49,623 bases of DNA, from the sequence record SRR22947725_3046, one strand, 5' to 3'. Each line of letters begins with the position of its first letter. Within the stretch, counting starts at the first letter, position 1. A program made the position numbers and the translations under genes. The notes below the pieces were generated by a model that did not search any database, was not told where the DNA came from, and was given only the letters and a program-made list of their open reading frames with translations. Positions 1,652 through 48,028 of this stretch are shown in pieces.

Positions 1652-1660
1652 GGAGTTACT

Positions 1661-2662: not shown

Positions 2663-2670
2663 GTAAAGTT

Positions 2671-18481: not shown

Positions 18482-18645
18482 TGCCTGTAGGTAAGGATCC
18501 AAGAGATACACATTTCATTATCAGTCTTATCAAAAGCTCGGTAAGACTTTTAGGTTGTGTTCTTGGTATTTTGTTTCAAAGTATTACTGTATTTGCTTTT
18601 ATGTTCTTAGTTGCCGAGCTGCTTGGCATATATGAGGAATTGTAA
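18481..18645 (+). CDS. small membrane protein (54 aa)
   Basis: MPVGKDPRDTHFIISLIKSSVRLLGC...AELLGIYEEL*; coupled to both neighbours; not in the ORF track. Confidence 0.65.
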   Translation: MPVGKDPRDTHFIISLIKSSVRLLGCVLGILFQSITVFAFMFLVAELLGIYEEL

Positions 18646-19550: not shown

Positions 19551-19552
19551 CC

Positions 19553-26182: not shown

Positions 26183-26796
26183 ACGAGAGAGAAGTAAGCG
26201 TATGGCCGTTACGAGCTCGTCATGAGAATGAGCAAAATAGCTTCACGTACATTGATAACTTCTTTTCGGCCGAAGATTGTAAGATGATACAGCAATTAGT
26301 CGAAGCTGATCATGAGTTAGAATCCGCTGTGACTCGTGATCAAAAAATCTCCCCCGATATAAGAGTATCGCAGGTCGCGTGGATATCAATGCAAGATCCA
26401 CACTCAAAGCTGTATGAAAAGATTACAGGCAGCGTGATAGCTGCAAATCAACGGTTCTGGCACTTTAACTTATCAGATATAGAGACTATACAATATACTG
26501 TATACGATAGTAGCATCTCAACCAAATCAAGATATGACTGGCATCAAGATGATGGATTTAGTACGACGTGGAATAACAGTATCCGCAAGTTGTCGTTTGT
26601 ATGTCTTCTTACTGACCCTGAAGAATTTGAGGGAGGTGATCTTGAAATCATGGTAAGCGCTAAACCTGAACCGCTGCCGCAAGCGCAGGGAAAGATGCTC
26701 TTTTTTCCATCCCCAACAATGCACCGAGTATCTCCTGTAACATCTGGAGTTCGTAGGACATTAGTAGGATGGGTGCGAGGACCTTGTTGGTCATGA
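26173..26796 (+). CDS. 2OG-Fe(II) oxygenase (PKHD/P4H-like)
   Basis: YDWHQD, RKLS, FEGGDL, FPS...HRV.PVT.G.R..LV.W. Confidence 0.9.
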   Translation: MDIDEREVSVWPLRARHENEQNSFTYIDNFFSAEDCKMIQQLVEADHELESAVTRDQKISPDIRVSQVAWISMQDPHSKLYEKITGSVIAANQRFWHFNLSDIETIQYTVYDSSISTKSRYDWHQDDGFSTTWNNSIRKLSFVCLLTDPEEFEGGDLEIMVSAKPEPLPQAQGKMLFFPSPTMHRVSPVTSGVRRTLVGWVRGPCWS

Positions 26797-29831: not shown

Positions 29832-30275
29832 ATGGTAGCAACTAAAGCATTTTCGTTTCCACGTTCACACTTCATCGGATTTGACCACGTATGGTCTGAG
29901 ATAGAGCGACTGTCAGAGATGGCAGACAACAAGCTGTATCCTCCACATAACGTCGTCAAGAAAGATGAAACACACTTTTCAATCGAGCTTGCCCTAGCTG
30001 GGTATAACAAAGAACAGTTGACCGTAGAGGTAAAAGACGGGATACTGGTCGTAGCTGGTGGAAAGGGTGACGGAGAGGTTGAACGTGAGTATCTCCACCG
30101 CGGTATTTCTGCAAAGAAGTTTACCCGCACCTTTAGACTATCAGAGCATGTTGTCGTTGATGGAGCTGACTTCATCGACGGCTTACTCGTCATTGATCTG
30201 AGAGTAGAAGTCCCAGAAGATAAGCGTCCCCGGTCTATACCAATTGGAGGTCAATTGTTGACGGAGGCAAAATGA
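29832..30275 (+). CDS. hsp20: small heat-shock protein Hsp20 (IbpA-like)
   Basis: FIGFD, YPPHN, IELALAG, YLHRGIS...F.R.F.L, GA...DGLL.I.L. Confidence 0.95.
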   Translation: MVATKAFSFPRSHFIGFDHVWSEIERLSEMADNKLYPPHNVVKKDETHFSIELALAGYNKEQLTVEVKDGILVVAGGKGDGEVEREYLHRGISAKKFTRTFRLSEHVVVDGADFIDGLLVIDLRVEVPEDKRPRSIPIGGQLLTEAK

Positions 30276-30787: not shown

Positions 30788-31071
30788 GTAAATTTATAGT
30801 AATGAAATTGGTTGGTGGTCAAGATGTAATGGCCAAACTTATTGAGGAGACTGATACATCTTACAAATTAGAGTCTCCGATGGTAATGACAGTAGACGCT
30901 GATAGGATCATGTACATGGCACTTGCGCCTTTTAGTCCTATGGATGAGGAAGTAGAACTCAGTAAGCAACACGTACTCTTTGATGCAAGACCATTACCAC
31001 ATATGATTGATCAGTTCGATGATCTTATGAACGGTAAGCTACCGCAAGCAACGCCTGTTGATAATGAGTAA
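30784..31071 (+). CDS. Sm-like fold phage protein, paralogue B
   Basis: KL.GGQDV.A, P.., APF, V.F...P; same pattern as the upstream gene. Confidence 0.55.
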
Positions 31072-33622
31072 ACCTTTCTATACGAACGTGACCAGGGGTC
31101 GCGGTCGGCAAGGCGACTATCTTTATTTTAGAGGATATAACAACAGCAAACGTATCCAGCGTAAGGTAAGGTATAAGCCTACTTTGTACGTTCCAAGTCC
31201 CGAACCAACTGAGTTTAAATCACTTGGTGGTTCTTACCTGGCTGATATGACTTTCGAAAGTATTCGCGAAGCTCGAAATTTTATTGACGAGTACAAGAAC
31301 GTCGATAATTTTGACATCCACGGTAACCAAGACTTCATACAACAGTTCATTAGTGATGCGTTCCAGCATGTGATTGAGTTTAACCGTGACGTTATCAACC
31401 TTACGACTATTGATATCGAAGTCCAATCTGATCAAGGGTTTCCAAGACCCGAAGATGCCAACCATCCAGTAACAGCAATCACTATTAAAAACAATATCGA
31501 TAACGTATACTACGTTTGGGGTATGGGTGACTGGGACCACAGCAAGTCTATCGTTAATCATTTGACAGTTAAGTACGTCAAGTGTGCCAATGAAGCCGAG
31601 CTGCTCCACAAGTTCATGGATCAATGGGCGTCCAACTATCCAGACGCAGTCACTGGTTGGAACAGTAGATTCTTTGACCTCGTCTATTTGGTTAACCGTA
31701 TTAACAAAGTACTTGGTGACGGTCACGCTAACAAGCTATCACCGTGGCACCACGAAATGGGTCACACGCTCAGATATCGAGAAGTTGGTTCGTTCGAGAC
31801 TCCTGTATATGAGATCGAAGGTATTGAGCAGTTAGATTACTTGGATCTGTTTAAGAAGTTTGCATACAGTTATGGTACTCAAGAGTCTTACAAGCTAGAT
31901 CACATTGCTCATGTTGTACTTGGTGAAAATAAGATCGACTACAGTGAATATGGATCTCTTAACGAACTGTACCTAAACGACTTTCAGAAGTTTATCGACT
32001 ATAACATTAAGGACGTTGAGATTGTAGACCGACTTGAGGACAAGATGGGTCTTGCTACCTTGTGCATGACGATAGCATACAAAGGTAAAGTCAACTACGC
32101 TGATGCTTTTGGTTCTGTTGCGGTGTGGGATGCTTTGATATTCAATGAGCTCCGTAGTAGAGGAATCATTTGTCCTCCCAAGAGGAGCAACGAAAAAGAA
32201 AGGAAGATTGAAGGTGCACACGTAAAGGATCCGCAGGTTGGCATGCATGAATGGGTAATGTCGTTTGACTTAAACAGTCTATATCCACATATCATCATGC
32301 AATACAATATGTCACCAGAGACGATTGTAGATAGCGTGCATTCGTTTGATCTACTTAAACGAGACAACACATACGGACACTATCATTCGTCTGTAGATTA
32401 TCTGTTGGATCAAAACCCACTTAATATAAAGACAGAGCACAGTATGGCTGGCACCGGCCAGTTCTTTGATCGTACTAAGCGAGGACTGTTTCCTGAGCTA
32501 GTTGATAACCTGTATAGTGAGCGTAAGCAATACAAAAAGCAAATGCTAGACGTGGAGCAGCAGATACAGGATCAAGGATCTAATTATGAGTTGGAGAAGT
32601 TAGTAACGACTTTAGACAATAAGCAGATGGCTATTAAGATTCTAATGAATAGCCTTTATGGTGCGATGTCTAATGAGTACTTCAGATATTACGATATGAG
32701 GATTGCTGAGGGTATCACAATCAGTGGTCAGCTTACAATTCGTTGGGCAGAGAAGCATCTTAACCAGTACATGAATAAGGTACTGGGTACAGATAACCAA
32801 GACTATGTGATTGCAATCGATACTGATTCCCTGTACATTAACATGGGCGGACTTGTAAACAAAGTCAATCCAAAAGACCCAGTAAAGTTCTTAGACAAGG
32901 TTGCCACAGAGAAGATTGAGCCTCTACTTGATCTTGCGTATCAAAAGCTGAAGGACTATCTACACGGTTATGATCAGATGATGGTCATGAAGCGAGAGGT
33001 GATTGCATCTAAAGGCGTGTGGACTGGTAAGAAGCACTACGTGCTAAACGTACACAACAGCGAAGGTGTACAATACAAAGAACCTAAGCTAAAGATGATG
33101 GGCATCGAGGCTGTAAGATCATCGACTCCAGCTGTGTGTCGTGAGATGTTTAAGGATACTCTTAAGGTAATCTTGGAAAAGGACGAGATCAGTACACAGA
33201 ACTATATCCGTGAATTACGTGATAAGTTCAAACATTTACCCATTGAAGACATAGCATTTCCACGCTCTGTCAATCGACTACCCTTTTACAAAGACAGTGT
33301 AACGCTGTTTAAGAAAGGAACACCGATACAGGTTCGTGCAGCATTGAAGTATAATTACTACATTGATCAATATCAGTTGAACAATAAATATGAGAAGATA
33401 TACTCGGGTGAGAAGATTAAGTTTTGTTATCTAAAACAACCCAACAAGGTACAGAGCAATGTCATTGCATTCCCTCAAATCCTGCCTGAAGAATTTGGTG
33501 TACGCGAGCATGTGGATTACGATACCCAGTTTGAGAAGGCTTTTGTTGAACCCGTCAAGAGCATTTTGGATGCTGTGGGTTGGGATGTAGAACCAAGGGC
33601 AACTCTGGAGGCATTCTTCTAA
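31064..33622 (+). CDS. 43: family B DNA polymerase gp43
   Basis: Exo DIEV, GWNS..FD; pol [24 protein letters not shown]-terminal clamp-binding TLEAFF. Confidence 0.99.
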
Positions 33623-35243: not shown

Positions 35244-36296
35244 ATGAGTGAATTTTTCCGTGATATTGTAAAGCAACTTAATGATGAAAACACAACCATC
35301 GCAGAAGATGGGTTAGCAAGTGCTGAGTACAGTGGCAACATTGATACGGGCAGCTACATCTTAAACGCTGCTCTTAGCGGTAGTATCTTTGGTGGTGTCC
35401 CTAACAACAAGATCACAGCATTCGCTGGTGAGTCTGCAACTGGTAAAACTTTCTTCGTAATGGGCGTTGTGAAAAAGTTCTTAGACGATCATACCGACGG
35501 TGCTGTGTTCTATTTCGACACCGAGGCTGCTGTAACTAAGGATATGATGAAGCAAAGGGGTATTGATACCAATCGAGTAATCATCAGTGAACCAGATACC
35601 ATTCAACGGTTCCGTCATACAGCACTTCAGATCCTAGACAACTACAACAGCACGTCTGGTGAGAAGCCTCCAATGCTGATGGTACTAGACTCTCTTGGCC
35701 AGCTTTCCACTACTAAGGAGGTAGAGGACACTGCTGCTGGTAGCGAAACAAGAGACATGACAAAGGCTGCTACTCTCAAGGCTACTTTCCGAGTACTTAA
35801 TTTAAAGTTAGCTAAAGCTAACGTACCAATGCTTGTTACCAACCACGTATATGAGATGGTCGGATCATACATTCCTACCAAAGAAATGGCTGGTGGCAGC
35901 GGCCTAAAGTATACCGCATCTCAGATCTGCTTTTTGTCTAAGAAGAAGGAAAAGGATGGCAAGGATGTAATCGGTAACATTATCAAAGTACGTATGGCTA
36001 AGTCTCGTCTTACCAAAGAAAATAAGCAGATAGAAGTACTGCTTACATATGACAAAGGTCTTGATAGGTATTATGGTCTATTGGAGTTAGCTGAAAAGTA
36101 TGAGATAATTAAGAAGGTGGCTAACCGTTATGAGATGCCTGATGGCACTAAAGTATACGCCAAGGCAATCCTAAAAGAGCCTACTAAGTACTTTGACGAT
36201 GAGCTGCTTGCTCGCATTGACGAAGCTGCACGTATGGAGTTTACTTACGGTTCCACTGACGATTACGAGCTCGAAGAGAACGAGTTGGCTGTATGA
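35244..36296 (+). CDS. uvsX: RecA-like recombinase UvsX
   Basis: DTGSY.LNA.LSG, AGESATGKTFF, LDSLG, GG.GLKY. Confidence 0.96.
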   Translation: MSEFFRDIVKQLNDENTTIAEDGLASAEYSGNIDTGSYILNAALSGSIFGGVPNNKITAFAGESATGKTFFVMGVVKKFLDDHTDGAVFYFDTEAAVTKDMMKQRGIDTNRVIISEPDTIQRFRHTALQILDNYNSTSGEKPPMLMVLDSLGQLSTTKEVEDTAAGSETRDMTKAATLKATFRVLNLKLAKANVPMLVTNHVYEMVGSYIPTKEMAGGSGLKYTASQICFLSKKKEKDGKDVIGNIIKVRMAKSRLTKENKQIEVLLTYDKGLDRYYGLLELAEKYEIIKKVANRYEMPDGTKVYAKAILKEPTKYFDDELLARIDEAARMEFTYGSTDDYELEENELAV

Positions 36297-36565
36297 TTCC
36301 CAAGTATGCTGTCCTTGAAGCTAAGGACAAAGATAGTGTATGTCCAATAATGATAGTTGAAGGTGAGTATGAAGGAACCGTACTTACCTTTGACGTCGTT
36401 AAGTTATCTGAAGACGGTGTACTATCTTTTACATATAATGTATTAGAAGGTGACGCTACAGGCGATCAATTTCAGAACACCCTTGGCGACATTCTTGTAA
36501 AGATGATTGAAGAGAAAGTTTTAAATGACCATAGAAACGAATATTCTGAGTCAGCTAATCAATAG
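36293..36565 (+). CDS. hypothetical protein (gp40-like by position)
   Basis: Between uvsX and gp41, as gp40 is in T4. Confidence 0.5.
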   Translation: MIPKYAVLEAKDKDSVCPIMIVEGEYEGTVLTFDVVKLSEDGVLSFTYNVLEGDATGDQFQNTLGDILVKMIEEKVLNDHRNEYSESANQ

Positions 36566-37925
36566 CGAATCCTATGCACGTAAAGTGCTTCCCTTTCTAA
36601 AAGAAGAATACTTCCAGACAATTACCGATAGGTTACTGGTAACCAAGATCAAGGAGTACATGGAGAAGTACAACGTACCTCCGTCTAAGGATGCGTTGTA
36701 CATTGAGTTGGAAAATACAGACTCACTAAGTGAAGCAGACTACAGCAACACTGTATCACAAGTCGAGCAGCTAAAGCAAGACGATGATGTGAACGAACAG
36801 TGGCTTATTGATAAGACTGAACAGTTCTGTCAAGAGAAGGCCGTGTATAATGCTATCATGGAATCAATTCATATCATCGATGGCAAGAATAAGAATAAGA
36901 CTAAGCAAGCTATTCCACAGGTTCTATCGGAAGCACTTGCCGTGTCTTTTGATAACCATATTGGTCATGACTTTATAGAAGACTATCAGCAACGATTTGA
37001 CTTCTACCATCACAAAGAAGAGCGTATACCTTTTGATCTTGATTATATGAACCGGATCACCAAGGGTGGTCTTCCTCGTAAGTCTCTAAACATTATCCTT
37101 GCTGGTACAGGTGTAGGTAAATCTCTTGCGATGTGTCACTTTGCTGCAAGTAATATGATGGAAGGTAAGAACGTACTGTACATCACAATGGAGATGGCAG
37201 AAGAAAAGATTGCAGAACGTATCGATGCAAACTTACTTAATGTCAAGGTCGATGAGCTTGTAAACCTTCCAAAGGATATGTACGACAAGAAGATTAGTGA
37301 TCTTAGACAAAGGACTCCTGGTCGACTTATTATCAAAGAGTATCCGACTGCATCAGCTCACTCTGGACACTTCCGTCATTTGATAAATGAGTTAAAGATC
37401 AAACGTAACTTTACTCCCGACATCATATACATCGACTACCTAAATATTTGTAGCAGCAGCAGAACAAAGGCGATAGGAGGTACTATAAACTCCTATACGT
37501 ACATTAAAGCGATAGCAGAGGAGCTACGTGGACTAGCTGTCGAAAAGAACGTACCGATCGTCTCAGCGACTCAGACGACGCGTTCTGGCTTCAATAACAG
37601 CGATCTTGGATTAGAGGATACTTCGGAATCATTTGGACTGCCTGCTACAGCTGATTTTATGTTTGCTATTATCAACAGCGATGAAATGGAGCAACTCGGT
37701 CAGCTAATGGTCAAGCAGTTGAAGAATAGATATAATGACCCGACTTTGTTTAAGAGATTTGTTATTGGTGTTGATAGAGCTAAGATGAGACTGTATGATG
37801 TTGAACAGACAGCACAAACTGACATAGTAGATGATGGTCCTGTAATGGATAACACAGAAGTTGGTAAAGGTCTTAATCAAGCGTTTGGTAAACCTAAAAA
37901 AGATTTTAGTGATTTATTTGTATGA
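36525..37925 (+). CDS. 41: replicative helicase gp41
   Basis: AGTGVGKSL.MC, KEYPT, IDYLNIC, ATQTTR, SESFGLPATAD, KQLKNRY. Confidence 0.98.
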   Translation: MTIETNILSQLINSESYARKVLPFLKEEYFQTITDRLLVTKIKEYMEKYNVPPSKDALYIELENTDSLSEADYSNTVSQVEQLKQDDDVNEQWLIDKTEQFCQEKAVYNAIMESIHIIDGKNKNKTKQAIPQVLSEALAVSFDNHIGHDFIEDYQQRFDFYHHKEERIPFDLDYMNRITKGGLPRKSLNIILAGTGVGKSLAMCHFAASNMMEGKNVLYITMEMAEEKIAERIDANLLNVKVDELVNLPKDMYDKKISDLRQRTPGRLIIKEYPTASAHSGHFRHLINELKIKRNFTPDIIYIDYLNICSSSRTKAIGGTINSYTYIKAIAEELRGLAVEKNVPIVSATQTTRSGFNNSDLGLEDTSESFGLPATADFMFAIINSDEMEQLGQLMVKQLKNRYNDPTLFKRFVIGVDRAKMRLYDVEQTAQTDIVDDGPVMDNTEVGKGLNQAFGKPKKDFSDLFV

Positions 37926-38668
37926 AAGTATTATTGATTGGTGAGTTGTGTAACGACGAGTATGTTTATTGCAACGTCAATAGAGTGAGTCCAGAAGCAC
38001 CGGTTCCTGTTGCTGACGTAAACTGGATTAACAAAATGGATGGTATGGCTGGTAATGTGGCCAACAACCTACGGGCCTTTGGTATCGATGTTCTTCACTA
38101 TCGTAACAGAGCTGACCAAGGTATAAGAAAAGTAAGGTACGTTGACATCAAAACCGGTCATCATCTACTTAGAGTAGACACGACGCATCCGAACATTACT
38201 CCCTTTGATGTAAAAAAAGTAAGTCATAATTTAGAACAGTTTGACGTAATTGTAGTTAGTGATTACAATAAAGGGTATGTTACTTACGAAGCAGTTCAGC
38301 AACTACGAACAATATTTAAAGGTCCTATCCTTATAGATAGTAAGAAGGATGATCTTGGTCAGTTTGAGGGGTGTATTGTCAAGATTAACGAGGATGAGTA
38401 CAACAAAGCCAAATCGTTACCTCGTTCCGTAATCGTAACACTTGGTAGCAAAGGTGCAAGGTACAACGATCAGGTGTTCTCATCTCCACCAGTTGAAATG
38501 TTTGACGTATGTGGTGCAGGTGATACTTTCCTTGCTGGTCTCACATATAAAATACTTCAAGGTGAATCTATAGGTCCTTGTATTGAATATGCAAACAAAT
38601 GTGCAGGCATTGCTGTACAGCATAGAGGCACGTACACATTACGTAAAACAGATATTGAATCGCTATGA
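37922..38668 (+). CDS. heptose-7-phosphate kinase (HldE/RfaE kinase domain, PfkB family)
   Basis: R.SPEAPVPV, G.A.NVA.N, SDY.KG, DVCGAGDTF anion hole. Confidence 0.88.
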   Translation: MKVLLIGELCNDEYVYCNVNRVSPEAPVPVADVNWINKMDGMAGNVANNLRAFGIDVLHYRNRADQGIRKVRYVDIKTGHHLLRVDTTHPNITPFDVKKVSHNLEQFDVIVVSDYNKGYVTYEAVQQLRTIFKGPILIDSKKDDLGQFEGCIVKINEDEYNKAKSLPRSVIVTLGSKGARYNDQVFSSPPVEMFDVCGAGDTFLAGLTYKILQGESIGPCIEYANKCAGIAVQHRGTYTLRKTDIESL

Positions 38669-39528
38669 AAATTCTTGTTACTGGTTACAAAGGTTTTATT
38701 GGTAGTCACGTCTACAAATATCTTGTCGAAGAAGGCCATGATGTAGCTGGTTATGATTGGGACGAGAGTTATGGTTGTTTACCGTACGTAAGAGATCTAG
38801 ATTGGGTAATACATCTCGGTGCAATCAGCAGCACTACAGAGAAAGATGTATCAAAGGTATTTGCTCACAACTACGACTTCTCAATTAAACTGTATAACGA
38901 ATGCTGCGCGTACGGTGTTAGTATGCAGTACGCTTCCAGTGCAAGCGTGTACGGTGACTTGAAGTCTTTCTCAGAAGAAAGCGACTGCAGACCAATGAAC
39001 GCATATGCTTGGTCTAAGTATATGTTTGATCGATATGTAAACAACATCGATGTGTGCCGTAATATAACTTGCCAGGGTTTCAGATACTTTAACGTATACG
39101 GTACTAACGAAGAACACAAAGGTGATCAAGCATCTGTGTTTACTAAATTCAAGAACCAGGCTGTTCAAGACGGTAAGATTAAATTATTTGAAAACAGTGA
39201 AAACTACAAGCGTGACTTTGTTTGTGTAGATGACATTGTACAGGTGCACAAGCAGATGCTTTGGAAAAAAGACCGAGGTGTGTTTAATGTCGGTAGTGGT
39301 ACAGCGACTAGTTTTCAGAAGGTAGCTGATCTTTGTAGTAAGCGACTTGGTGTGCCTATTGAATACATTCCAATGCCCGACAATTTAAAGAACCAATATC
39401 AAGAATACACAAAAGCAGACATTAGCAAACTAAATATTATAATCGATATTAATTGGACTACTCCTAAGCAGTGGATAGATGCTAACTTAGATGCAGTTGA
39501 AGATATCAGACAATCAGCTCTTACCTAA
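38665..39528 (+). CDS. hldD: ADP-L-glycero-D-manno-heptose 6-epimerase
   Basis: GYKGFIGS, HLGAISSTTE, YASSASVYG, YAWSK, RYFNVYG..E.HKG, YQ.YT.AD. Confidence 0.9.
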   Translation: MKILVTGYKGFIGSHVYKYLVEEGHDVAGYDWDESYGCLPYVRDLDWVIHLGAISSTTEKDVSKVFAHNYDFSIKLYNECCAYGVSMQYASSASVYGDLKSFSEESDCRPMNAYAWSKYMFDRYVNNIDVCRNITCQGFRYFNVYGTNEEHKGDQASVFTKFKNQAVQDGKIKLFENSENYKRDFVCVDDIVQVHKQMLWKKDRGVFNVGSGTATSFQKVADLCSKRLGVPIEYIPMPDNLKNQYQEYTKADISKLNIIIDINWTTPKQWIDANLDAVEDIRQSALT

Positions 39529-40132
39529 TCCTACAATCACTAAGCCGGTTGATTGTGAGCTGCTGTTGCAAGCGGATCACAGATACTTCGATAAAGATGG
39601 TTACGAATTAAACTACCAAGAAAGACTGTTTCATAAAAACAGCGGTGTCGTGATCGACGAAGGCCATTTGTTCCATACTGCTAACCATGTGACGTGGTTC
39701 TATGACAAAGAAGAGAGTCAGAATCAACTCGTCCTTGATCACAGCACGCTTAACATGAGATGGAACTATACAGGCGCTGCTCGTGAACAAATCAAAGAGC
39801 TTGCTGTGCACAAGCCATCTTTAAACAAACTTCTTGGCGTTGTGCAAAAATGGGGTATTGACTTTAGTCTTGACTATGTGTATACTGGGCACTGTTTGGA
39901 AGTGTTCCACATAGAAGCGGATTATTTGAATTACCATGAAGCCATGGTAGATAAAGAGAAAGCCGAGAAGCTAATCAAGAACACCGATTGGTATGACGGT
40001 GCTTATTGTTTGCTTCGTGATGCAGACAAGTGGTCACATTTAAACAGCGACGACCAAGCAGACTACAAGTCTAAGTATTTTGGTTGGAAGCGTGCGTTTG
40101 ATAATAGAAAGGTTTTTAGTTTTGCGACTTGA
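39491..40132 (+). CDS. hypothetical protein
   Basis: 213-aa ORF in the operon; no recognised motif. Confidence 0.65.
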   Translation: MQLKISDNQLLPNPTITKPVDCELLLQADHRYFDKDGYELNYQERLFHKNSGVVIDEGHLFHTANHVTWFYDKEESQNQLVLDHSTLNMRWNYTGAAREQIKELAVHKPSLNKLLGVVQKWGIDFSLDYVYTGHCLEVFHIEADYLNYHEAMVDKEKAEKLIKNTDWYDGAYCLLRDADKWSHLNSDDQADYKSKYFGWKRAFDNRKVFSFAT

Positions 40133-40505
40133 AGGTTTAGTTAAAAAGGGTTGGGGGCACGAGTACATATTTGCTACAAACGACAAGTATTGTGGCAAGC
40201 TACTTAAATTCAATACTGGGTCAAAGTTCTCTATGCACTTCCATGATGAGAAGGACGAGACTTGGTTTGTAATGGAAGGTAAGTTTTTAGTTAGGTACAT
40301 TAACACTCTAAACGCAGATCTCAACGAGATCATCTTGAATCCTGGTGATACATGGCGCAATGAGCCACTTGAACCTCATCAGATCATTTGTTTAGAGGAA
40401 GGTACTATTATTGAAGTGTCTACCCCAGATAGTGTCGAGGATAACTATAGGGTTTGGCCTGGCGATAGCCAGAATGGAGATAGTGATGAAAAAGAGAAGT
40501 TATGA
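40122..40505 (+). CDS. cupin, sugar-isomerase-like
   Basis: KGWG.E, S.HFH..KDETW, H, EVST.D..EDNYR..PGDSQ. Confidence 0.8.
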   Translation: MRLEGLVKKGWGHEYIFATNDKYCGKLLKFNTGSKFSMHFHDEKDETWFVMEGKFLVRYINTLNADLNEIILNPGDTWRNEPLEPHQIICLEEGTIIEVSTPDSVEDNYRVWPGDSQNGDSDEKEKL

Positions 40506-41712
40506 CCAATCCGTAGTTGATCAGCTCAAGGGAAGCGTCCATATTGAACATACTTTGGCTAAGCGAGGTGCGCTTCAGCTACGCAAGTTGTTTTCTGAGA
40601 ACCCATACATAAACACTTTCGGTGCCTATAATGGGCAACAGGCGGTGCAGCATGTCAAAGCCGGTCTCAAAGCAATCTACGTTAGTGGGTGGCAAGTCGC
40701 AGCAGCAGCGAACTCAACGGATGAAACTTATCCTGACCAGAGTTTGTATGCTGTTAACTCTGTTCCTAATGTCGTTCGTAATATCAATAATAGTTTTCGT
40801 CGACAAGATCAAATCTCTGTTTCAGAAGGTGGAGACGGGTTTCCATTCGTGCCTATCGTCGCTGATGCAGAAGCGGGCTTTGGAGGCGCACTCAACTCTT
40901 ATGAGCTTGCAAGGAACCTTATCGAAGCCGGAGCAGCAGCGGTACATTTCGAAGATCAGCTCGCGTCTGAAAAGAAGTGCGGACATCTGGGCGGAAAAGT
41001 ACTTATACCTACTAGTCAGGCTATTCGCAATCTTAATGCTGCTCGCCTCGCTGCAGACGTGGCCGGGATCGACACCCTGGTCATTGCCCGTACAGACGCT
41101 GAGTCAGCAAGACTTCTAACAACCGATATTGATGAAATCGATAGTAAGTTTATCAAGAACGGTAAGCGCGTTTACGATAAACATGCTCGTACACCAGAAG
41201 GATACTATGAGATCGAAGGTGGTCTTGAGATGGGTTGTGAGAGGGGACAGGCTTATGCTGAGTATGCTGACCTTGTGTGGTGTGAGACTTCCAAACCTTG
41301 TCTAGTTGAAGCAAAACGATTTGCAGATGCTGTCAAAGGAGCAGTGCCCGATGCAATGTTGGCGTACAACTGCTCACCTTCTTTCAACTGGCGTCAGTCT
41401 ATCCCAAGCGATCAAGAGCTACAAGACTTCCAGTGGAAGCTTGGTAAGATGGGCTTTAAGTTTCAATTCATTACACTAGCAGGGTTCCACGCCACTAACT
41501 ATGCGGTGTTTGACTTTGCTCGCAAGTATAAGAAGGATGGGATGTTTGCATACTCTCGATTGCAGGAGATGGAGTTTGCAGCTCAGTCAGACGGATACAC
41601 TAGTGCCAAGCATCAACGTGAAGTTGGTGTTGGATACTTCGATATTATAACTAATGCATTGGGGGCCTCTACTGCCGGGTTGGCAGAATCAACAGAGACG
41701 GAGCAGTTTTAA
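40486..41712 (+). CDS. aceA: isocitrate lyase
   Basis: YVSGWQVA, YPDQSLY, PIVADAEAGFGG, HFEDQ, catalytic KKCGHLGGK, ARTDA, YNCSPSFNW, FITLAGFH, HQREVG.GYFD. Confidence 0.97.
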   Translation: MKKRSYDQSVVDQLKGSVHIEHTLAKRGALQLRKLFSENPYINTFGAYNGQQAVQHVKAGLKAIYVSGWQVAAAANSTDETYPDQSLYAVNSVPNVVRNINNSFRRQDQISVSEGGDGFPFVPIVADAEAGFGGALNSYELARNLIEAGAAAVHFEDQLASEKKCGHLGGKVLIPTSQAIRNLNAARLAADVAGIDTLVIARTDAESARLLTTDIDEIDSKFIKNGKRVYDKHARTPEGYYEIEGGLEMGCERGQAYAEYADLVWCETSKPCLVEAKRFADAVKGAVPDAMLAYNCSPSFNWRQSIPSDQELQDFQWKLGKMGFKFQFITLAGFHATNYAVFDFARKYKKDGMFAYSRLQEMEFAAQSDGYTSAKHQREVGVGYFDIITNALGASTAGLAESTETEQF

Positions 41713-41819
41713 TGAAACCTACACCACTTGTAAGTGATCTTGTATTTTTCTGTTCAGTAATTGCTATCGTCTGTATTGCATGGAGTTTGTAAGTGTGTGT
41801 GGGACTTGGAGAAAGAAGG

Positions 41820-42032
41820 ATGAAAGAGAAGTTACTTAAAGCAGTCAAAACCAAACATAAGGCTGTAATGGAAGAGGCGCTTGTTAATATCGAAGTGTAT
41901 GAAAACAGTGTAGGTATTGGGGAACACCCAGATATCGTAAGTGCTGTAGAGGAACAAGTTGACAAGTATGTCCATGCTCATGAAATGGTGGAGGGAGTCG
42001 ACAAGATACTTCACTCTTTAAGCTATGAGTAG
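41820..42032 (+). CDS. conserved small hypothetical protein
   Basis: N..VY....VGIGEHPDI pattern; AAGGA RBS. Confidence 0.6.
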   Translation: MKEKLLKAVKTKHKAVMEEALVNIEVYENSVGIGEHPDIVSAVEEQVDKYVHAHEMVEGVDKILHSLSYE

Positions 42033-42075
42033 TAATTATATTATGAGGAGCTCCTTATCGCGAAAGGAAGTTAAC

Positions 42076-42360
42076 ATGAGCGCAATCTTTGATCTAGAAC
42101 AACAAATGCTTGAGTTTGCTAATGTCACCTCTGACATTGAGATGGTGAACAGGCATTTCACTGAATATGAAAAATGGGAAAACATGGATGGTGAATTATG
42201 TGATGCCATTCTCAATAAGTACGGTGCAATACAGGAACTGTACGAGATTAAGTTTCAGAACATGTGGGACACATTCGAAACAGTGTGTAAAGAATATCAT
42301 GCAGCAAGGAAGGATAAAGAACAGCGGGAACGAGATACCTCTCTGGACGATATCGGATGA
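42076..42360 (+). CDS. hypothetical protein
   Basis: IFDLEQ, LYE.KF...W..FE pattern; AAGGA RBS. Confidence 0.6.
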   Translation: MSAIFDLEQQMLEFANVTSDIEMVNRHFTEYEKWENMDGELCDAILNKYGAIQELYEIKFQNMWDTFETVCKEYHAARKDKEQRERDTSLDDIG

Positions 42361-42923
42361 GAGATTGGTTCGCAAAATCCATGACTAAGTTCTTTCGGTT
42401 CTTTGCTGATACGTTTTTTGCTAAACGGTATGGCCACCGAGCGGTTGTGCTTGAGACAGTTGCTGGTGTACCTGGTATGGTAGCAGGGATGTTGATTCAT
42501 CTTCGTAGTCTTCGTAAGATGGAGCGTGGTAATGGTACGATGATTCACGAGATGCTTAAAGAGGCAGAGAACGAACGTAAGCATTTAATGTTCTTTATTG
42601 AGATTGCACAGCCCAACCAGTTTGAAAGATTCCTTATTGTGATGGCACAATTTATCTTTTGGCACTTCTATTTGGTGTTCTATATCCTAGCACCAAAGAC
42701 TGCTCACAAGATGATTGCATACTTTGAGGAAGAAGCTGTGCGCTCATATACCGAGTATCTTGAGTTAATTGAATCGGGTCAGATAGAGAATGTACCTGCT
42801 CCTCAGCTTGCTATTGAGTATTATGGTTTACTTGAAGACGCCAAGCTGTCTGATATGGTAAAGTATGTGCGAGCAGACGAAGCCAATCACAGCAAAGTTA
42901 ATCATCGTATAGCAGGCTTCTGA
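42357..42923 (+). CDS. aox: alternative oxidase (di-iron ubiquinol oxidase)
   Basis: RYGHRAVVLETVAGVPGMV, EAENERKH, YFEEEA...Y, RADEANH di-iron ligands. Confidence 0.93.
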   Translation: MRDWFAKSMTKFFRFFADTFFAKRYGHRAVVLETVAGVPGMVAGMLIHLRSLRKMERGNGTMIHEMLKEAENERKHLMFFIEIAQPNQFERFLIVMAQFIFWHFYLVFYILAPKTAHKMIAYFEEEAVRSYTEYLELIESGQIENVPAPQLAIEYYGLLEDAKLSDMVKYVRADEANHSKVNHRIAGF

Positions 42924-43042
42924 TGGACTGGGGTCTTATAGGTATATTTTGTATAATGATGCTACCTCTCGTTGCAGGTGGCCTTACTTTTATTCTTTCT
43001 GGTATGAGTATTGAGGAGTCACGTAAGCGTGAGTCTTCCTAA
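42923..43042 (+). CDS. small single-TM protein (39 aa)
   Basis: MDWGLIGIFCIMMLPLVAGGLTFILSGMSIEESRKRESS*; coupled to the aox stop. Confidence 0.45.
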   Translation: MDWGLIGIFCIMMLPLVAGGLTFILSGMSIEESRKRESS

Positions 43043-43622
43043 GGTATTTTTCATTGGTTTTAATAAAACTGCCACGACTTCCTTTGACTATTTGTTTAAG
43101 CATAGCGGGTATCGTACGTACCACAGTCTTGACAGTAAAGGTTTCTCCTTGGCTGCAACCATGCATTCCAACTATAAAAATGGTAAGCGAATGCTTGTAG
43201 GCATTGACGACGCTGACTGCTATAGCGATCTGACTTTTAGTAGCTACCAACGTTACATAGAGGCTAACGAGTACTTTAAAGAGCTTGATAATGAATATCC
43301 TAATAGCTACTTTATACTTCAAGCTAGAAATATGGACGATTGGATTGAAAGCAGGCTTAACCACTCCGATAAAGATTCGTTTTTAGAAAGATGCATAACC
43401 GTACTTCATTGCAACAAGCAAGATGTTATTAGGCGGTGGAAGGATTTGAAGATAGCTCATTTTTCAAACGTACGTAGGTACTTTCAAGATCATACTCAGT
43501 TTTTAGAGTTTAACATAGACATTGATGATATTTCCAAACTTATAGATCATGTTAGCCCTCACTATGTGTTAAATGCCGGTCATTGGAAGCGTCTCAACGT
43601 AACAAGAGAACAACAAATATAA
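43029..43622 (+). CDS. sulfotransferase family protein
   Basis: KVFFIGFNKTATTS PAPS loop, YP.S.FIL..R...W..S. Confidence 0.8.
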   Translation: MSLPKVFFIGFNKTATTSFDYLFKHSGYRTYHSLDSKGFSLAATMHSNYKNGKRMLVGIDDADCYSDLTFSSYQRYIEANEYFKELDNEYPNSYFILQARNMDDWIESRLNHSDKDSFLERCITVLHCNKQDVIRRWKDLKIAHFSNVRRYFQDHTQFLEFNIDIDDISKLIDHVSPHYVLNAGHWKRLNVTREQQI

Positions 43623-44353
43623 AAAGTGATATTCAAAATATAAACGGTTGGCAGCTGCTTTCTATAGAGAGAGACAGGACTATGCTAAACTATGCTAACG
43701 ATAACCATCTTAAAAGCAATCCCGTTGCATGGCATGCCAACCTAATTCAAGATATTAACGATTTGTACTTGGCTAAAGACTGTACAAAGCAGGTAGCCAT
43801 AGACATAGGTGCATCGTACGGATGGATGTCAGTTCCTATGTCTAGTGTTTTTAAACACGTATATTCATTTGAAATAATTCCTACTATTCGTGATTGTCTT
43901 AAATTAAACACCGCTAGTTTGTCTAATGTTCATGTTATGGACAGCGGCCTTAGCTCCATTTCTGGGTCGGTTCCGTTTAAAGTGCTACCTAATTCTGGGG
44001 TTAGTCGTGTTTGCCACGTCTCCGACAGTAATTCTGTTTTGCAGGTTAAACGTCTAGACGATTTTCAGTTTGATCATGTTGACTTGATAAAAATTGACGT
44101 AGAAGATCACGAAATGGACGTGTTGATTGGAGCTAAGGATACGCTTACTAATAATACCCCCCTACTTGTAGTAGAGTGTAACTATGTTGAACGTCTCCGA
44201 CATCATTTGATAAAACGCCAAGAAATTATATCATACCTATTATCATTAAAGTATTCACTAATCGACTTCAGAGGCCACGATTTAATCTTTACTAAAAAGA
44301 ACACCAATATCCAATCGTACCTAGATAAATTTAAGACAACAAAAAGCCGTTGA
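43583..44353 (+). CDS. FkbM-family methyltransferase
   Basis: AIDIGA..G, V.SFE, VDLIKIDVE.HE..VL.GA, P....E; start uncertain. Confidence 0.85.
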   Translation: MEASQRNKRTTNIKSDIQNINGWQLLSIERDRTMLNYANDNHLKSNPVAWHANLIQDINDLYLAKDCTKQVAIDIGASYGWMSVPMSSVFKHVYSFEIIPTIRDCLKLNTASLSNVHVMDSGLSSISGSVPFKVLPNSGVSRVCHVSDSNSVLQVKRLDDFQFDHVDLIKIDVEDHEMDVLIGAKDTLTNNTPLLVVECNYVERLRHHLIKRQEIISYLLSLKYSLIDFRGHDLIFTKKNTNIQSYLDKFKTTKSR

Positions 44354-44378
44354 CTATTCTGCCCGCTGCCCTGATAAT
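44350..44378 (+). promoter_or_regulatory. sigma70-type early promoter
   Basis: TTGACT-17 nt-GATAAT; shares CCTGATAATGT with the promoter at 44853. Confidence 0.75.
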
Positions 44379-44433
44379 GTACGTCATGAATGGGCACACC
44401 CTGTTCATGTTTTTTTGTTTAGCTTAATAGGAA

Positions 44434-44694
44434 ATGATTATGTCTATTTTTGACAAAGTGTTTAACCTTTTGGTAGTTGAGGGCCGTGAGGCATCCGCAA
44501 AGCAAATGGCTAGCTGGTTCGGTACCACCACTGGTACTATCTCTGCTCGAGTCTCTGAGCTCCGCACTCAGGAAGGCTTCGCTATCTACGCTAACAAGCG
44601 TGTCGATAGCAAAGGACGTACTTCTACGTTCTATCGCGCTGGTAACCCCACTCGCGCCGTTGTAGCTGCTGGCTACCGAGCTCTTGCTGCGTAA
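44434..44694 (+). CDS. small winged-helix DNA-binding protein
   Basis: Q....FG.....ARVSELR..G..IYAN...YR.G.P.R.VVAAGY. Confidence 0.65.
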   Translation: MIMSIFDKVFNLLVVEGREASAKQMASWFGTTTGTISARVSELRTQEGFAIYANKRVDSKGRTSTFYRAGNPTRAVVAAGYRALAA

Positions 44695-47548: not shown

Positions 47549-48028
47549 ATGGACGTACTCGAGAACATAGTCTACCCAGACAGTGAGTTACTGATACAAC
47601 GTATCGATCAATACGGATCCAGAGATCAGTCTAAAACTAATGTAATGTTAGGTACGACAAAGGCTCGAGTATATTCACCCCACAAGCACAACAACGATCA
47701 CTACGACGATTACAAACGCTGGCTCAACAGCAGACCGTTTGTAAAACCATACGGTATAGTTGTAGATGATTCGCATCTGTGGGGCATGTCATATTCACCT
47801 GATCAATATACAGAGTCTCACAATCATCCTAAGTTTGAAGTTTCTGGCATTCATTTCCTATGTGCCGATCGTGGTTGCGGTAAGCTGTTTATCGGCAACC
47901 ATGAAATAGAACCAAATACAAACATGGTTGTCATGTTTCCAGGATCAGCTCAGCACTGGGTTGATAAGGCTACAAATCCTAAATCAAAAAGAGTGTGTAT
48001 GGTGTTTAACATAAGCCAACGATTATAG
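47549..48028 (+). CDS. 2OG-Fe(II) oxygenase/cupin-like protein
   Basis: W...Y......HNHP....S, FP....H.V......R....FN. Confidence 0.65.
   Translation: MDVLENIVYPDSELLIQRIDQYGSRDQSKTNVMLGTTKARVYSPHKHNNDHYDDYKRWLNSRPFVKPYGIVVDDSHLWGMSYSPDQYTESHNHPKFEVSGIHFLCADRGCGKLFIGNHEIEPNTNMVVMFPGSAQHWVDKATNPKSKRVCMVFNISQRL

What the first reader, a model, noticed from the sequence alone, without database searches (positions are those of the whole stretch)
40486..42923. ICL and alternative oxidase co-located: candidate iron-sparing or redox-bypass module
Seen: aceA and an AOX with intact di-iron ligands lie about 650 bp apart in one operon-like run. Established: AOX bypasses the heme/Fe-S-rich complexes III and IV, and the glyoxylate shunt is reported to rise under iron limitation or oxidative stress in heterotrophic bacteria. 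Inference: a coordinated viral rewiring of both the TCA cycle and respiration in a heterotroph, analogous to cyanophage photosynthesis AMGs. I am not aware of this pairing having been described.
Basis: partly seen in the sequence, partly recalled or inferred. Interest (0 to 1): 0.75.

Follow-up and report, generated by a model that had tools for sequence, protein, structure and literature searches.

The report
Phage isocitrate lyase beside alternative oxidase
An uncultured marine T4-like phage, probably of non-photosynthetic Gammaproteobacteria, carries intact genes for isocitrate lyase and a true alternative oxidase side by side, a pairing that recurs in related phages but is optional, so it looks like two mobile redox-relief genes sharing a flexible island, not a fixed module.

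Summary
The window is a T4-like myovirus fragment. ICL (40486-41712) passes NCBI's equivalog cut-off. The oxidase (42357-42923) is a true AOX with all six di-iron ligands, about 25-29% identical to cyanophage PTOX. Both genes are under strong purifying selection (dN/dS about 0.05).

ICL-AOX adjacency recurs in IMG/VR contigs in several layouts, four of them with overlapping stop and start codons. It needs at least 8 gains or losses on the ICL tree. It was absent from all 80 cellular AOX loci examined.

The pairing is optional:
- The window's closest relatives (ICL 98%) lack AOX; here AOX lies in a 1.2-kb insertion.
- Only 4 of 34 well-flanked ICL loci have AOX within 3 kb, and 7 of 26 AOX loci have ICL.
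- 3 of 7 near-complete ICL genomes have no AOX, and 3 carry it 16-19 kb away.
- Co-orientation means nothing, because essentially the whole window is on one strand.

Related phages place peroxiredoxin, an IscU scaffold and Hsp20 in the same islands.

Best reading: two separately mobile auxiliary genes that complement each other in redox and carbon balance. The iron link and the host (SAR86 or Porticoccaceae?) are inferred, not shown. Each gene was already reported from viruses; I found no paper on the pair.

The parts
40486..41712 (+). Isocitrate lyase (aceA, short E. coli/Bacillus type), 408 aa. It lacks about 25 N-terminal residues of cellular homologues, as do the viral relatives.
   Evidence: family, equivalog cut-off, KKCGH loop. 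(dN/dS 0.044-0.046). (153 of 155 candidate stretches in IMG/VR encode a relative). (67 viral ICL separated from 80 cellular ICL by one branch, support 99).
41820..42032 (+). Small ORF, 70 aa from the ATG (listed as 41793-42032 from a GTG). PHROG phrog_1811, function unknown. Often travels with ICL and/or AOX in relatives.
   Evidence: phrog_1811, E 4.6e-17. (within 4 kb of 14 of 67 distinct ICL loci and 13 of 51 distinct AOX loci).
42076..42360 (+). Small ORF, 94 aa from the ATG (listed as 42025-42360), with no family match. Its stop overlaps the AOX start in an ATGA.
42357..42923 (+). True alternative oxidase (ubiquinol oxidase), 188 aa, with all six di-iron ligands and the conserved tyrosine.
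41715..42908 (.). 1,194-bp block holding the two small ORFs and AOX. It is absent from the closest relatives L066 and L067, where 131 bp stand in its place. It is a presence/absence cassette that begins right after the ICL stop codon.
   Evidence: blastn: 36000-41714 at 89% identity, then 42909-43006. (one RNA-library contig joins 41714 to 42909; short side 27 nt).
43007..44332 (.). Second block absent from L066 and L067. It holds a sulfotransferase-like gene (43011-43622) and an FkbM methyltransferase (43583-44353).
40080..40505 (+). Cupin-domain protein whose end overlaps the ICL start. Found next to ICL in 11 of 67 distinct ICL loci.
37922..39528 (+). Heptose-7-phosphate-kinase-like gene (37922-38668) and ADP-heptose-6-epimerase-like gene (38665-39528). 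These are cell-surface sugar genes at the head of the same flexible island. Both score below the equivalog cut-offs.
36525..37925 (+). gp41-type replicative helicase, the conserved backbone gene that bounds the island upstream.
   Evidence: ICL lies downstream of this helicase in C48C1 as well.

Best explanation
ICL and AOX are two separately mobile, host-derived auxiliary metabolic genes. They sit in one of the flexible islands of an uncultured marine T4-like myovirus that probably infects non-photosynthetic Gammaproteobacteria of the SAR86/Porticoccaceae kind.

Shown:
- Both genes are intact, viral and under strong purifying selection.
- Recombination brought them together in this genome.
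- The adjacency has arisen or been lost many times in this phage group, and is optional.

Inferred mechanism:
- The phage ICL splits isocitrate into succinate and glyoxylate. This skips the two CO2- and NADH-producing TCA steps.
- The host's own malate synthase uses the glyoxylate, so C4 acids and carbon are kept for biosynthesis.
- Succinate's electrons enter the ubiquinone pool through the host's complex II.
- The phage AOX passes them straight to oxygen. It does not need the bc1 or cytochrome oxidases and is not held back by the proton gradient.

Together the two genes would keep central carbon flux running and limit over-reduction and reactive oxygen. This would help while the infected cell's cytochrome chain is limiting, whether from iron scarcity, oxidative damage or shut-off of host synthesis.

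The pair is one facultative combination within a wider set of redox, iron and stress genes that occupy the same islands in relatives: peroxiredoxin, IscU/NifU scaffold and Hsp20.

Viral setting:
- Major head protein, gp43 polymerase, UvsX, gp41 and the late sigma factor were found among 64 ORFs scanned.

Not a cyanophage:
- psbA (PF00124) was found in 0 of 5 related near-complete genomes.
- The polymerase is at most 47.5% identical to any listed phage.

Recombination brought the genes together:
- The nearest ICL relatives (L066 and L067, 98%) have no AOX.
- L068 and L069 have ICL at 96% but AOX at only 76%.
- The nearest AOX (L003, 94%) sits by an ICL that is only 80% identical.
- L006 (AOX 94%) has no ICL within its flanks.

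Repeated adjacency:
- Stop and start codons overlap (TTGA or TAATG) in L018, L070, L110 and L146.
- Other layouts are ICL, small ORF, then AOX (L014, L015); AOX, then peroxiredoxin and/or a denV-like gene, then ICL (L029, L032, L034); and AOX, IscU, lysozyme, peroxiredoxin, a denV-like gene, then ICL (L020).
- The AOX-adjacent state needs 8 changes on the ICL tree.
- The ICL-adjacent state needs 10 changes on the AOX tree, of which starred branches force at least 3; 4 of 500 shuffles were as low.

Not inherited from cells:
- 0 of 80 cellular AOX loci have an aceA-type ICL within 4 kb.

The host can complete the shunt:
- Malate synthase was found in 5 of 5 Porticoccus/SAR86 genomes.
- It was found in 0 of 5 related phage genomes.

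The phage ICL is a different isoform from the candidate hosts':
- Their ICL is the NF005074 long type and only 29% identical.

Shared redox neighbourhood:
- Peroxiredoxin is near 10 of 67 ICL loci and 8 of 51 AOX loci.
- NifU/IscU is near 10 of 67 and 6 of 51.
- Hsp20 is near 9 of 51 AOX loci.
- C48C1 has a NifU-like gene and a peroxiredoxin within about 3 kb of its ICL.

Other support:
- Contigs from RNA libraries of three studies cover the ICL of close relatives. The longest is 1029 bp with 50 differences.
Against: The pairing is optional and in the minority:
- 4 of 34 well-flanked distinct ICL loci have AOX within 3 kb, and 7 of 26 AOX loci have ICL. The window is counted in both figures.
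- Of 7 near-complete ICL genomes, 1 has AOX adjacent, 3 have it 16-19 kb away in the gp45/gp44 gap, and 3 have none.
- 0 of 5 long AOX contigs hold ICL, though these are only 15-78% complete.

A hot-spot explanation is possible:
- Both genes use the same few hypervariable slots. ICL itself sits in the gp45/gp44 gap in L104-L107.
- Unrelated genes (lysozyme, a denV-like gene, DUF6267) are comparably frequent neighbours.
- Overlapping stop and start codons are common between unrelated genes in these dense genomes. In the window, the cupin overlaps ICL.

No function was measured:
- The RNA-library contigs do not bridge ICL to AOX and may contain carried-over DNA.
- No activity, timing of expression or host is shown.
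- All counts rest on fragmentary, partly redundant IMG/VR contigs, and on the best 80 of at least 153 ICL hits.
Confidence: 0.5

Rival explanations
1. Hot-spot co-residence only. ICL and AOX are independent auxiliary genes that each help the phage on their own. ICL would serve carbon conservation or precursor supply. AOX would serve poison- or stress-resistant respiration. They end up together only because T4-like genomes accept foreign genes at a few hypervariable sites.
For: - Both genes occur in the same two slots, downstream of gp41 and between gp45 and gp44.
- Each is mostly found without the other.
- AOX and the sulfotransferase/methyltransferase pair are simple insertions relative to 89%-identical relatives.
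- Unrelated genes are comparably frequent neighbours.
- Notes from other windows of this scan report phage AOX beside quite different partners (unchecked).
Against: - ICL is the most frequent neighbour of AOX with a metabolic annotation (13 of 51).
- The adjacency recurs in at least four layouts and needs 8 changes on the ICL tree.
- Four lineages have the two genes fused stop-to-start.
- In the public phage collection, the only record with the viral-type ICL is also the only one with a true AOX, out of 50,697 records.
Confidence: 0.3
2. Strict iron-sparing module. The pair is selected specifically by iron scarcity. It replaces flux through iron-rich complexes I, III and IV with complex II plus a two-iron oxidase.
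For: - Glyoxylate-shunt expression is linked to low iron in marine heterotrophs (PMC11069385, passages).
- AOX needs only two iron atoms and no haem (established biochemistry, recalled).
- IscU-type Fe-S scaffold genes recur in the same islands.
Against: - No iron data were available, so no environmental correlation is shown.
- Run labels include marine, estuary and freshwater. None was laid as DNA, so they say nothing about habitat.
- The chain ICL, complex II, AOX pumps no protons, so it saves iron only at a large energy cost.
- Peroxiredoxin and Hsp20 neighbours point to general oxidative or proteotoxic stress as much as to iron.
Confidence: 0.12
3. Nucleotide-supply reading. AOX keeps ubiquinone oxidised so that quinone-linked dihydroorotate dehydrogenase (pyrimidines) and complex II keep running. 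ICL feeds glyoxylate towards glycine (purines) and C4 acids towards aspartate (pyrimidines). Both would serve phage DNA synthesis.
For: - The genes lie among replication and nucleotide genes: gp43, UvsX, gp41, dCMP deaminase and a 7-deazaguanine pathway.
- There is no T4 late-promoter motif between 29765 and 48036, whereas structural genes have one. This fits expression with the replication genes.
- Hurwitz 2013 proposed succinate and oxaloacetate as a branch point for such supply (PMC4053976, passage).
Against: This is purely inferential. No nucleotide-pathway gene is a recurrent direct neighbour of ICL or AOX. The quinone dependence of the host's dihydroorotate dehydrogenase was not examined.
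Confidence: 0.08

Closest known systems
Viral aceA/aceB (glyoxylate-shunt auxiliary genes) in ocean viromes, and the aceBA operon of a T4-like environmental viral genome (Hurwitz 2013, PMC4053976; Nishimura 2017, PMC5332604; passages and section 17 read)
   Same: A phage-borne isocitrate lyase in a marine T4-like genome, proposed to redirect host TCA flux. Cell-surface sugar genes lie nearby, as in Nishimura's genome.
   Different: Here ICL comes without malate synthase (0 of 5 related genomes). It belongs to a large clade set apart from all 80 cellular ICL sampled. It is paired with AOX, which neither paper mentions (0 occurrences of 'oxidase' in both).
Cyanophage plastoquinol terminal oxidase (PTOX)
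   Same: A di-iron quinol oxidase carried by T4-like marine phages as a safety valve for an over-reduced quinone pool; same Pfam family, PF01786.
   Different: The rows listed are 24.5-29.2% identical over 57-68% of the protein, with E at least 0.1. A branch with support 100 separates it from all AOX. PHROG PTOX matches only at E 3e-6, against Pfam AOX at 1.9e-70. PTOX sits beside photosynthesis and pentose-phosphate genes.
Bacterial and mitochondrial alternative oxidase (for example trypanosome AOX, PDB 3vv9; cellular AOX of Porticoccaceae, SAR86, Halieaceae, Methylophilaceae, Pelagibacteraceae)
   Same: All iron ligands are present. It is 69-72% identical to Porticoccaceae AOX and 65-69% to the SAR86 rows near the top of the list; further SAR86 rows are 63-64%. 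In the tree, viral AOX interleave with that cellular clade.
   Different: It is encoded by a virus. In cells it is never next to an aceA-type ICL (0 of 80 loci).
Phage C48C1 (OQ984149.1, 156 kb, filed under Kyanoviridae)
   Same: The only record in the 50,697-record phage collection with both the viral-type ICL (74.5%) and a true AOX (65.8%). ICL lies downstream of the gp41 helicase, as it does here.
   Different: The two genes are 17 kb apart, with AOX between gp45 and gp44. Both are annotated 'hypothetical protein'.

Membership tests
Isocitrate lyase (NCBIfam NF011645 / Pfam PF00463) | Whole-protein score above the curated equivalog cut-off, and above the sister enzyme methylisocitrate lyase | tested here: met
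   613.6 bits against a cut-off of 562. prpB scores 104.8 against 354.4.
Isocitrate lyase (NCBIfam NF011645 / Pfam PF00463) | Catalytic KKCGH loop and the C-terminal lid segment | tested here: met
   'sekkcghlggk' and the terminal 'esteteqf' align to solved ICL 6lrp. The motif name is recalled.
Isocitrate lyase (NCBIfam NF011645 / Pfam PF00463) | Full-length architecture | tested here: inconclusive
   The match starts at profile position 27 and at chain residues 24-42, so about 25 N-terminal residues are missing. Viral relatives match from query residues 1-3, apart from a few truncated contigs, and dN/dS is about 0.045. The short form is therefore conserved, but its activity is untested.
Isocitrate lyase (NCBIfam NF011645 / Pfam PF00463) | Cleaves isocitrate to succinate and glyoxylate | not testable with these tools
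   Needs an enzyme assay or complementation of an aceA mutant.
Alternative oxidase (true AOX, PF01786) | Family score above the gathering cut-off over the whole domain | tested here: met
   237.3 bits against 22.7, profile positions 19-215 of 216.
Alternative oxidase (true AOX, PF01786) | Four Glu and two His di-iron ligands plus the conserved Tyr | tested here: met
   Aligned to 9kun and 3vv9. Invariant in 16 of 16 sequences. The trypanosome residue numbering is recalled.
Alternative oxidase (true AOX, PF01786) | Groups with AOX and not with PTOX | tested here: met
   (a branch with support 100 splits off 3 cyanophage PTOX; quick tree, long outgroup branch).
Alternative oxidase (true AOX, PF01786) | Cyanide-resistant, SHAM-sensitive ubiquinol oxidation | not testable with these tools
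   Needs expression and respirometry.
Cyanophage PTOX | Close sequence kinship with cyanophage PTOX (phrog_4235) | tested here: not met
   E 3e-6 to phrog_4235. tblastn E at least 0.1 and identity at most 29.2% in the rows listed.
Dedicated two-gene module or operon (ICL-AOX) | Adjacency conserved across relatives | tested here: not met
   The closest relatives lack AOX. 4 of 34 ICL loci and 7 of 26 AOX loci have the partner within 3 kb. The adjacency is recurrent but facultative.
Dedicated two-gene module or operon (ICL-AOX) | Co-transcription | tested here: inconclusive
   No supported promoter or terminator lies between the genes. RNA-library contigs do not bridge them.
Complete phage-borne glyoxylate shunt (aceBA) | Malate synthase in the phage | tested here: not met
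   PF01274 was found in 0 of 5 related near-complete genomes. No such match appeared among the window ORFs scanned (64 by PHROGs, 14 by Pfam). The window is only a fragment of the genome.
Phage auxiliary metabolic gene | A gene of cellular metabolism inside a bona fide viral genome, flanked by viral hallmark genes and conserved among viruses | tested here: met

The most novel reading that the evidence does not exclude
ICL plus AOX, acting through the host's complex II, form a phage-installed route from succinate to oxygen that pumps no protons. Streamlined hosts that carry proteorhodopsin, such as SAR86 or SAR92-type cells, can make a proton gradient from light. In such hosts this route would uncouple carbon flux and precursor supply from the iron-rich, gradient-controlled respiratory chain. 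That would make it the heterotroph counterpart of the cyanophage psbA/PTOX strategy. Selection would repeatedly reassemble the pair, together with IscU and peroxiredoxin, in phage genomes.
Probability: 0.2. Interest if true: 0.8.

Novelty: new member of a known kind. Interest (0 to 1): 0.45.

Why it matters
Auxiliary genes of cyanophages changed how viral infection is placed in ocean carbon budgets. Comparable knowledge for phages of the abundant uncultured heterotrophs is thin. This phage group carries a divergent, strongly conserved ICL and a true AOX, and has joined them repeatedly. That gives a concrete, testable case of viral rewiring of both the TCA cycle and the respiratory chain. It also offers a sequence marker set (ICL, AOX, IscU, peroxiredoxin) with natural presence/absence variants that could be compared across iron and oxygen gradients. 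If the pairing is only a hot-spot effect, the finding still documents how freely such genes shuffle between two defined slots of T4-like genomes.

Tried and rejected
- Megablast of 39000-44500 against the phage collection found no match.
- No whole genome is held for the window. An 'of' centre given as a locus was not accepted; I then obtained a handle.
- Literature search for 'C48C1' returned 9 unrelated papers.
- The search 'pelagimyophages' OR 'alternative oxidase' returned only general AOX papers.
- Zaragoza-Solas 2020 (PMC7029224): the main text and the two readable xlsx supplements have no AOX, isocitrate or glyoxylate. Tables S4 and S5, the AMG lists, are PDFs that cannot be read here. 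The claim in earlier scan notes that AOX is listed there could therefore not be checked.
- A sample of 80 gp41-helicase loci, meant as an unbiased background, drew mostly distant T4-likes (61-71% identity). Of the 26 with at least 6 kb downstream, 1 had ICL and 0 had AOX. It is too distant to serve as a fair control.
- Sigma-70 promoter and terminator scans were not above shuffles. The hairpin at 42961-42982 is not significant. No transcription unit is claimed.
- RNA libraries: short or poorly matching pieces over AOX, and parts without cover, say nothing about AOX expression.
- Our-findings look-ups by place and by words returned nothing.
- The 199-aa gene directly upstream of ICL in several relatives, considered as a possible metabolic partner, looks like a denV or DNA-binding family protein and was dropped.
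- One family scan failed on wrong coordinates and was repeated with the right frame.
Full report
**What is there**

The 49.6-kb window is a fragment of a T4-like myovirus. Of 64 + strand ORFs scanned against PHROGs, clear matches include:
- head maturation protease, scaffold and major head protein (9629-11017);
- tail tube, UvsY, late sigma factor, gp45 clamp and gp44/62 clamp loader;
- RegA, gp43 polymerase (31058-33622), UvsX and gp41 helicase (36525-37925).

No tRNA gene was found. All ORFs with a family match are on the + strand.

Downstream of the helicase lies a run of non-core genes:
- a heptose-7-phosphate-kinase-like gene;
- an ADP-heptose-epimerase-like gene;
- a 213-aa unknown;
- a cupin;
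- ICL (40486-41712);
- two small ORFs;
- AOX (42357-42923);
- a sulfotransferase-like gene;
- an FkbM methyltransferase.

ICL:
- It passes NCBI's isocitrate lyase equivalog NF011645 (613.6 bits against a cut-off of 562).
- It fails the methylisocitrate lyase models.
- It matches solved bacterial ICLs at E 6.9e-150, with the KKCGH loop aligned.
- It lacks about 25 N-terminal residues of cellular enzymes. Its viral relatives share this feature, since they match from query residues 1-3.

The oxidase:
- It matches Pfam AOX at E 1.9e-70.
- It matches solved mitochondrial AOX at E about 2e-39.
- The four glutamates, two histidines and the tyrosine of the di-iron site are invariant in 16 of 16 aligned viral and cellular AOX.

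Both genes are under strong purifying selection. For the pairs where dS could be estimated, dN/dS is 0.044-0.046 for ICL and 0.046-0.050 for AOX. The closest AOX pair is 94% identical in protein but only 80% in DNA.

The genes are 644 bp apart. The second small ORF overlaps the AOX start.

**AOX, not PTOX**

- With the E-value limit raised to 5, tblastn against 50,697 phage records found 41 records.
- These were Phage C48C1 (65.8%), 38 cyanophage records and 2 Erwinia phage records.
- The cyanophage rows listed are annotated PTOX. They are 24.5-29.2% identical over 57-68% of the query, with E at least 0.1.
- In a tree of 54 viral AOX, 89 cellular AOX and 3 cyanophage PTOX, a branch with support 100 splits off the PTOX. 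This was a quick search, and the outgroup branch is very long.

**Whose phage**

- psbA was found in 0 of 5 related near-complete genomes.
- The polymerase is at most 47.5% identical to any listed phage. The best matches are Synechococcus phages, C48C1 and the OM43 phage Melnitz.
- The nearest cellular AOX are from Porticoccus/Porticoccaceae MAGs (69-72%), including chromosomes of 1.3 Mb.
- Next come SAR86 single-cell genomes (65-69% near the top of the list, further rows 63-64%), then Halieaceae, Methylophilaceae and Pelagibacteraceae.
- In the tree, viral AOX interleave with the Porticoccaceae/SAR86/Halieaceae clade. A second clade of 60 cellular AOX is separate, with support 100.
- Two phage-like contigs with these genes are binned in a Porticoccaceae MAG and a gammaproteobacterial MAG. 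This is weak evidence.

A host among streamlined marine Gammaproteobacteria is my inference, at roughly even odds.

**Is the pairing more than this one genome?**

Yes, but it is optional. IMG/VR gave 63 loci with a close AOX relative. It gave 153 of 155 candidate stretches with an ICL relative, of which the best 80 were kept.

Mapping both genes on all loci shows these layouts:
- (a) ICL directly followed by AOX with overlapping stop and start codons (TTGA or TAATG) in L018, L070, L110 and L146.
- (b) ICL, then a small ORF or ORFs, then AOX: the window, L068/L069 and L014/L015.
- (c) ICL, 1.1-1.2 kb, then AOX: L003-L005 and L080.
- (d) AOX upstream of ICL with peroxiredoxin and/or a denV-like gene between them: L029, L032, L034. 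In L020 the order is AOX, IscU, lysozyme, peroxiredoxin, denV-like gene, ICL.
- (e) 8.5 kb apart: L138.
- (f) 16-25 kb apart. In C48C1, G002, G005 and the MAG contig G012:C1, AOX sits in the gap between gp45 and gp44. In G419, G423 and the contig of L027/L135 only the distance is known.

ICL itself occupies the gp45/gp44 gap in L104-L107. The two genes therefore move between the same few flexible slots.

**Counts**

Dereplicated by protein sequence, and requiring 3 kb of flank on both sides:
- AOX lies within 3 kb of ICL in 4 of 34 ICL loci.
- ICL lies within 3 kb of AOX in 7 of 26 AOX loci. The window is included in both figures.

Near-complete or complete ICL genomes (7 in all):
- 1 has AOX adjacent (G001).
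- 3 have it 16-19 kb away (C48C1, G002, G005).
- 3 have none (G003, G004, G006).

Other long contigs:
- Of five further ICL contigs of 38-102 kb (14-41% complete), 2 hold AOX at a distance and 3 hold none.
- Of five AOX contigs of 54-103 kb (15-78% complete), 0 hold ICL.

All these contigs are fragments and partly redundant, so absences are soft.

**History**

- Viral ICL (67 distinct proteins) are separated from 80 cellular ICL by a single branch with support 99, in a FastTree tree. The cellular ICL are at most 60% identical and come from many phyla. This fits one old capture.
- On the ICL tree, the AOX-adjacent state needs 8 changes.
- On the AOX tree, the ICL-adjacent state needs 10 changes. 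Starred branches force at least 3, and 4 of 500 shuffles were as low. The clamp-slot state needs only 2 changes.

The histories of the two genes in this window disagree:
- The nearest ICL (L066 and L067, 98%) have no AOX.
- L068 and L069 have ICL at 96% but AOX at 76%.
- The nearest AOX (L003, 94%) lies by an 80% ICL.
- L006 (AOX 94%) has no ICL in its flanks.

At the DNA level the window matches L066 and L067 at 89% from 36000 to 41714, which is 2 nt past the ICL stop codon. It then has a 1,194-bp block (41715-42908: two small ORFs plus AOX) where the relatives have 131 bp. A shared 98 bp follows. Then comes a second 1,326-bp block (sulfotransferase, FkbM) that the relatives also lack. One contig from an RNA library shows the AOX-less joint 41714 to 42909, with a short side of 27 nt.

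So AOX is a cassette that recombination placed next to ICL here.

**Not inherited from cells**

- Of 80 cellular AOX loci with 4-kb flanks, 0 have an aceA-type ICL nearby. One has a 28%-identical ICL-family gene.
- The candidate hosts have their own shunt. Malate synthase was found in 5 of 5 Porticoccus/SAR86 genomes.
- In 4 of those 5 genomes there is a long ICL frame of 534-551 aa. The two that I scanned match equivalog NF005074. The Porticoccus one is only 29% identical to the phage enzyme.
- The fifth genome, a SAR86, gave only a weak match in a 337-aa frame.
- Related phages have no malate synthase (0 of 5).

If these are the hosts, the phage adds a second, different ICL isoform and relies on host malate synthase and complex II.

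**Neighbourhood**

I clustered same-strand ORFs within 4 kb of 67 distinct ICL loci and 51 distinct AOX loci. Not all loci had full flanks.

| Neighbour | ICL loci (of 67) | AOX loci (of 51) |
|---|---|---|
| AOX / ICL (each other) | 13 | 13 |
| 112-aa membrane protein | 19 | 15 |
| phrog_1811 small protein | 14 | 13 |
| denV-like / DNA-binding protein | 9 | 17 |
| peroxiredoxin | 10 | 8 |
| NifU/IscU scaffold | 10 | 6 |
| Hsp20 | not counted | 9 |
| cupin | 11 | not counted |

Cell-wall hydrolase and lysozyme are also frequent neighbours.

C48C1 has a NifU-like gene and a peroxiredoxin within about 3 kb of its ICL.

ICL is the most frequent neighbour of AOX with a metabolic annotation. It is one of several redox, iron or stress genes in these islands, and unrelated genes are comparably frequent.

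**Expression**

- No sigma-70-like promoter or terminator signal exceeds shuffles.
- The hairpin after AOX is not significant.
- The T4 late-promoter motif occurs 7 times in the window, against 3.3 expected. Five copies lie just upstream of ORF starts, three of them before structural genes. None lies between 29765 and 48036. This fits non-late expression together with the replication genes; that is an inference from T4 biology.
- Contigs from RNA libraries of three studies cover the ICL of close relatives: 1029 bp with 50 differences, 149 bp with 1, and 224 bp with 5. None bridges ICL to AOX, and DNA carry-over cannot be excluded.

**How it most likely works**

Steps shown:
- Two intact, conserved enzymes sit in a phage.
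- The pairing is facultative and has been reassembled repeatedly.
- The candidate hosts have malate synthase.

Steps inferred:
- ICL diverts isocitrate to succinate and glyoxylate. This lowers NADH and CO2 output and keeps carbon for C4 acids.
- Complex II passes succinate's electrons to ubiquinone.
- AOX returns ubiquinol to ubiquinone without the cytochrome branch and without control by the proton gradient.

This fits the published idea that the shunt helps under low iron by routing electrons through succinate dehydrogenase past complex I (PMC11069385, passages). It also fits the redox and stress neighbours. I put this 'complementary redox-relief pair' at about 0.5.

The rivals are:
- pure hot-spot co-residence, 0.3;
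- a strictly iron-selected module, 0.12;
- a nucleotide-supply role, 0.08.

**Comparison and novelty**

- Viral aceA/aceB were reported from viromes (PMC4053976, passages).
- An aceBA operon was reported in a T4-like environmental genome (PMC5332604, section 17).
- Cyanophage PTOX is well known. A cyanomyovirus paper annotates an 'AOX' (PMC12801897, passages).
- Earlier unchecked notes of this scan report true AOX in other marine phages beside IscU, SdhB or cytochrome c. They say a 2020 supplementary table lists AOX for pelagimyophages. I could not read those PDF tables.
- A search for papers holding 'alternative oxidase', 'isocitrate lyase', 'auxiliary metabolic' and 'phage' found 0. Two looser searches found nothing on the pair.

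The components are therefore known. The recurrent ICL-AOX linkage, and the virus-specific ICL clade behind it, appear undescribed in the library searched. I file it as a new member of a known kind (phage auxiliary metabolic genes), of moderate interest.

Noticed in passing
window 18645-21173: Four adjacent genes: QueE-like radical SAM, QueD-like 6-pyruvoyl-tetrahydropterin synthase, a phosphoribosyltransferase-like gene and GTP cyclohydrolase (PHROG matches). This looks like a 7-deazaguanine pathway, possibly for DNA modification.
   Followed up: no
window 740-3624: Three tandem paralogues (303, 333 and 317 aa) all match the same part of phrog_2295, function unknown. The region has 49-53% G+C against about 40-42% elsewhere.
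   Followed up: no
window 37922-40505 and 43011-44353: Cell-surface sugar genes frame the ICL-AOX pair: a heptose-7-phosphate-kinase-like gene, an ADP-heptose-6-epimerase-like gene (both below equivalog cut-offs), a cupin, a sulfotransferase-like gene and an FkbM methyltransferase. The last two are a separate insertion relative to L066 and L067.
   Followed up: partly
L080:2566-2904 (P0122) and its cluster in relatives; absent from the window: A 112-aa predicted membrane protein with no Pfam or PHROG match is the most frequent neighbour of ICL (19 of 67 loci) and is common near AOX (15 of 51). In the loci mapped it starts right at the ICL stop in L015, L020, L080 and L138.
   Followed up: partly
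L020:3883-7749; L029, L032, L034; C48C1 (L001): In one lineage AOX, IscU/NifU, lysozyme, peroxiredoxin, a denV-like gene and ICL form one compact block. C48C1 has NifU-like and peroxiredoxin genes within about 3 kb of ICL.
   Followed up: partly
L104-L107; L002, L016, L048, L058, L062, L147, L228, L229: The short gap between the gp45 clamp and the gp44 clamp loader is a second insertion slot. It holds AOX in eight distinct sequences and ICL in L104-L107.
   Followed up: partly
L411 (Porticoccus MAG), L409 (SAR86): The candidate hosts encode the long NF005074-type ICL, only 29% identical to the phage's short type. In the three Porticoccus MAGs, malate synthase lies about 2.5 kb from ICL.
   Followed up: yes
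window 17383-17916, 26173-26796, 47549-48028, 29832-30275: Further auxiliary genes: peptide deformylase, two 2OG-Fe(II) oxygenases and Hsp20. Hsp20 is preceded by a late-promoter motif at 29758.
   Followed up: no
L146 (6-kb contig of a gammaproteobacterial MAG); G012:C1 (93-kb contig of a Porticoccaceae MAG): Phage-like contigs carrying ICL and AOX are binned inside bacterial MAGs in the species-representative genome set. This may be a host hint or binning contamination.
   Followed up: partly
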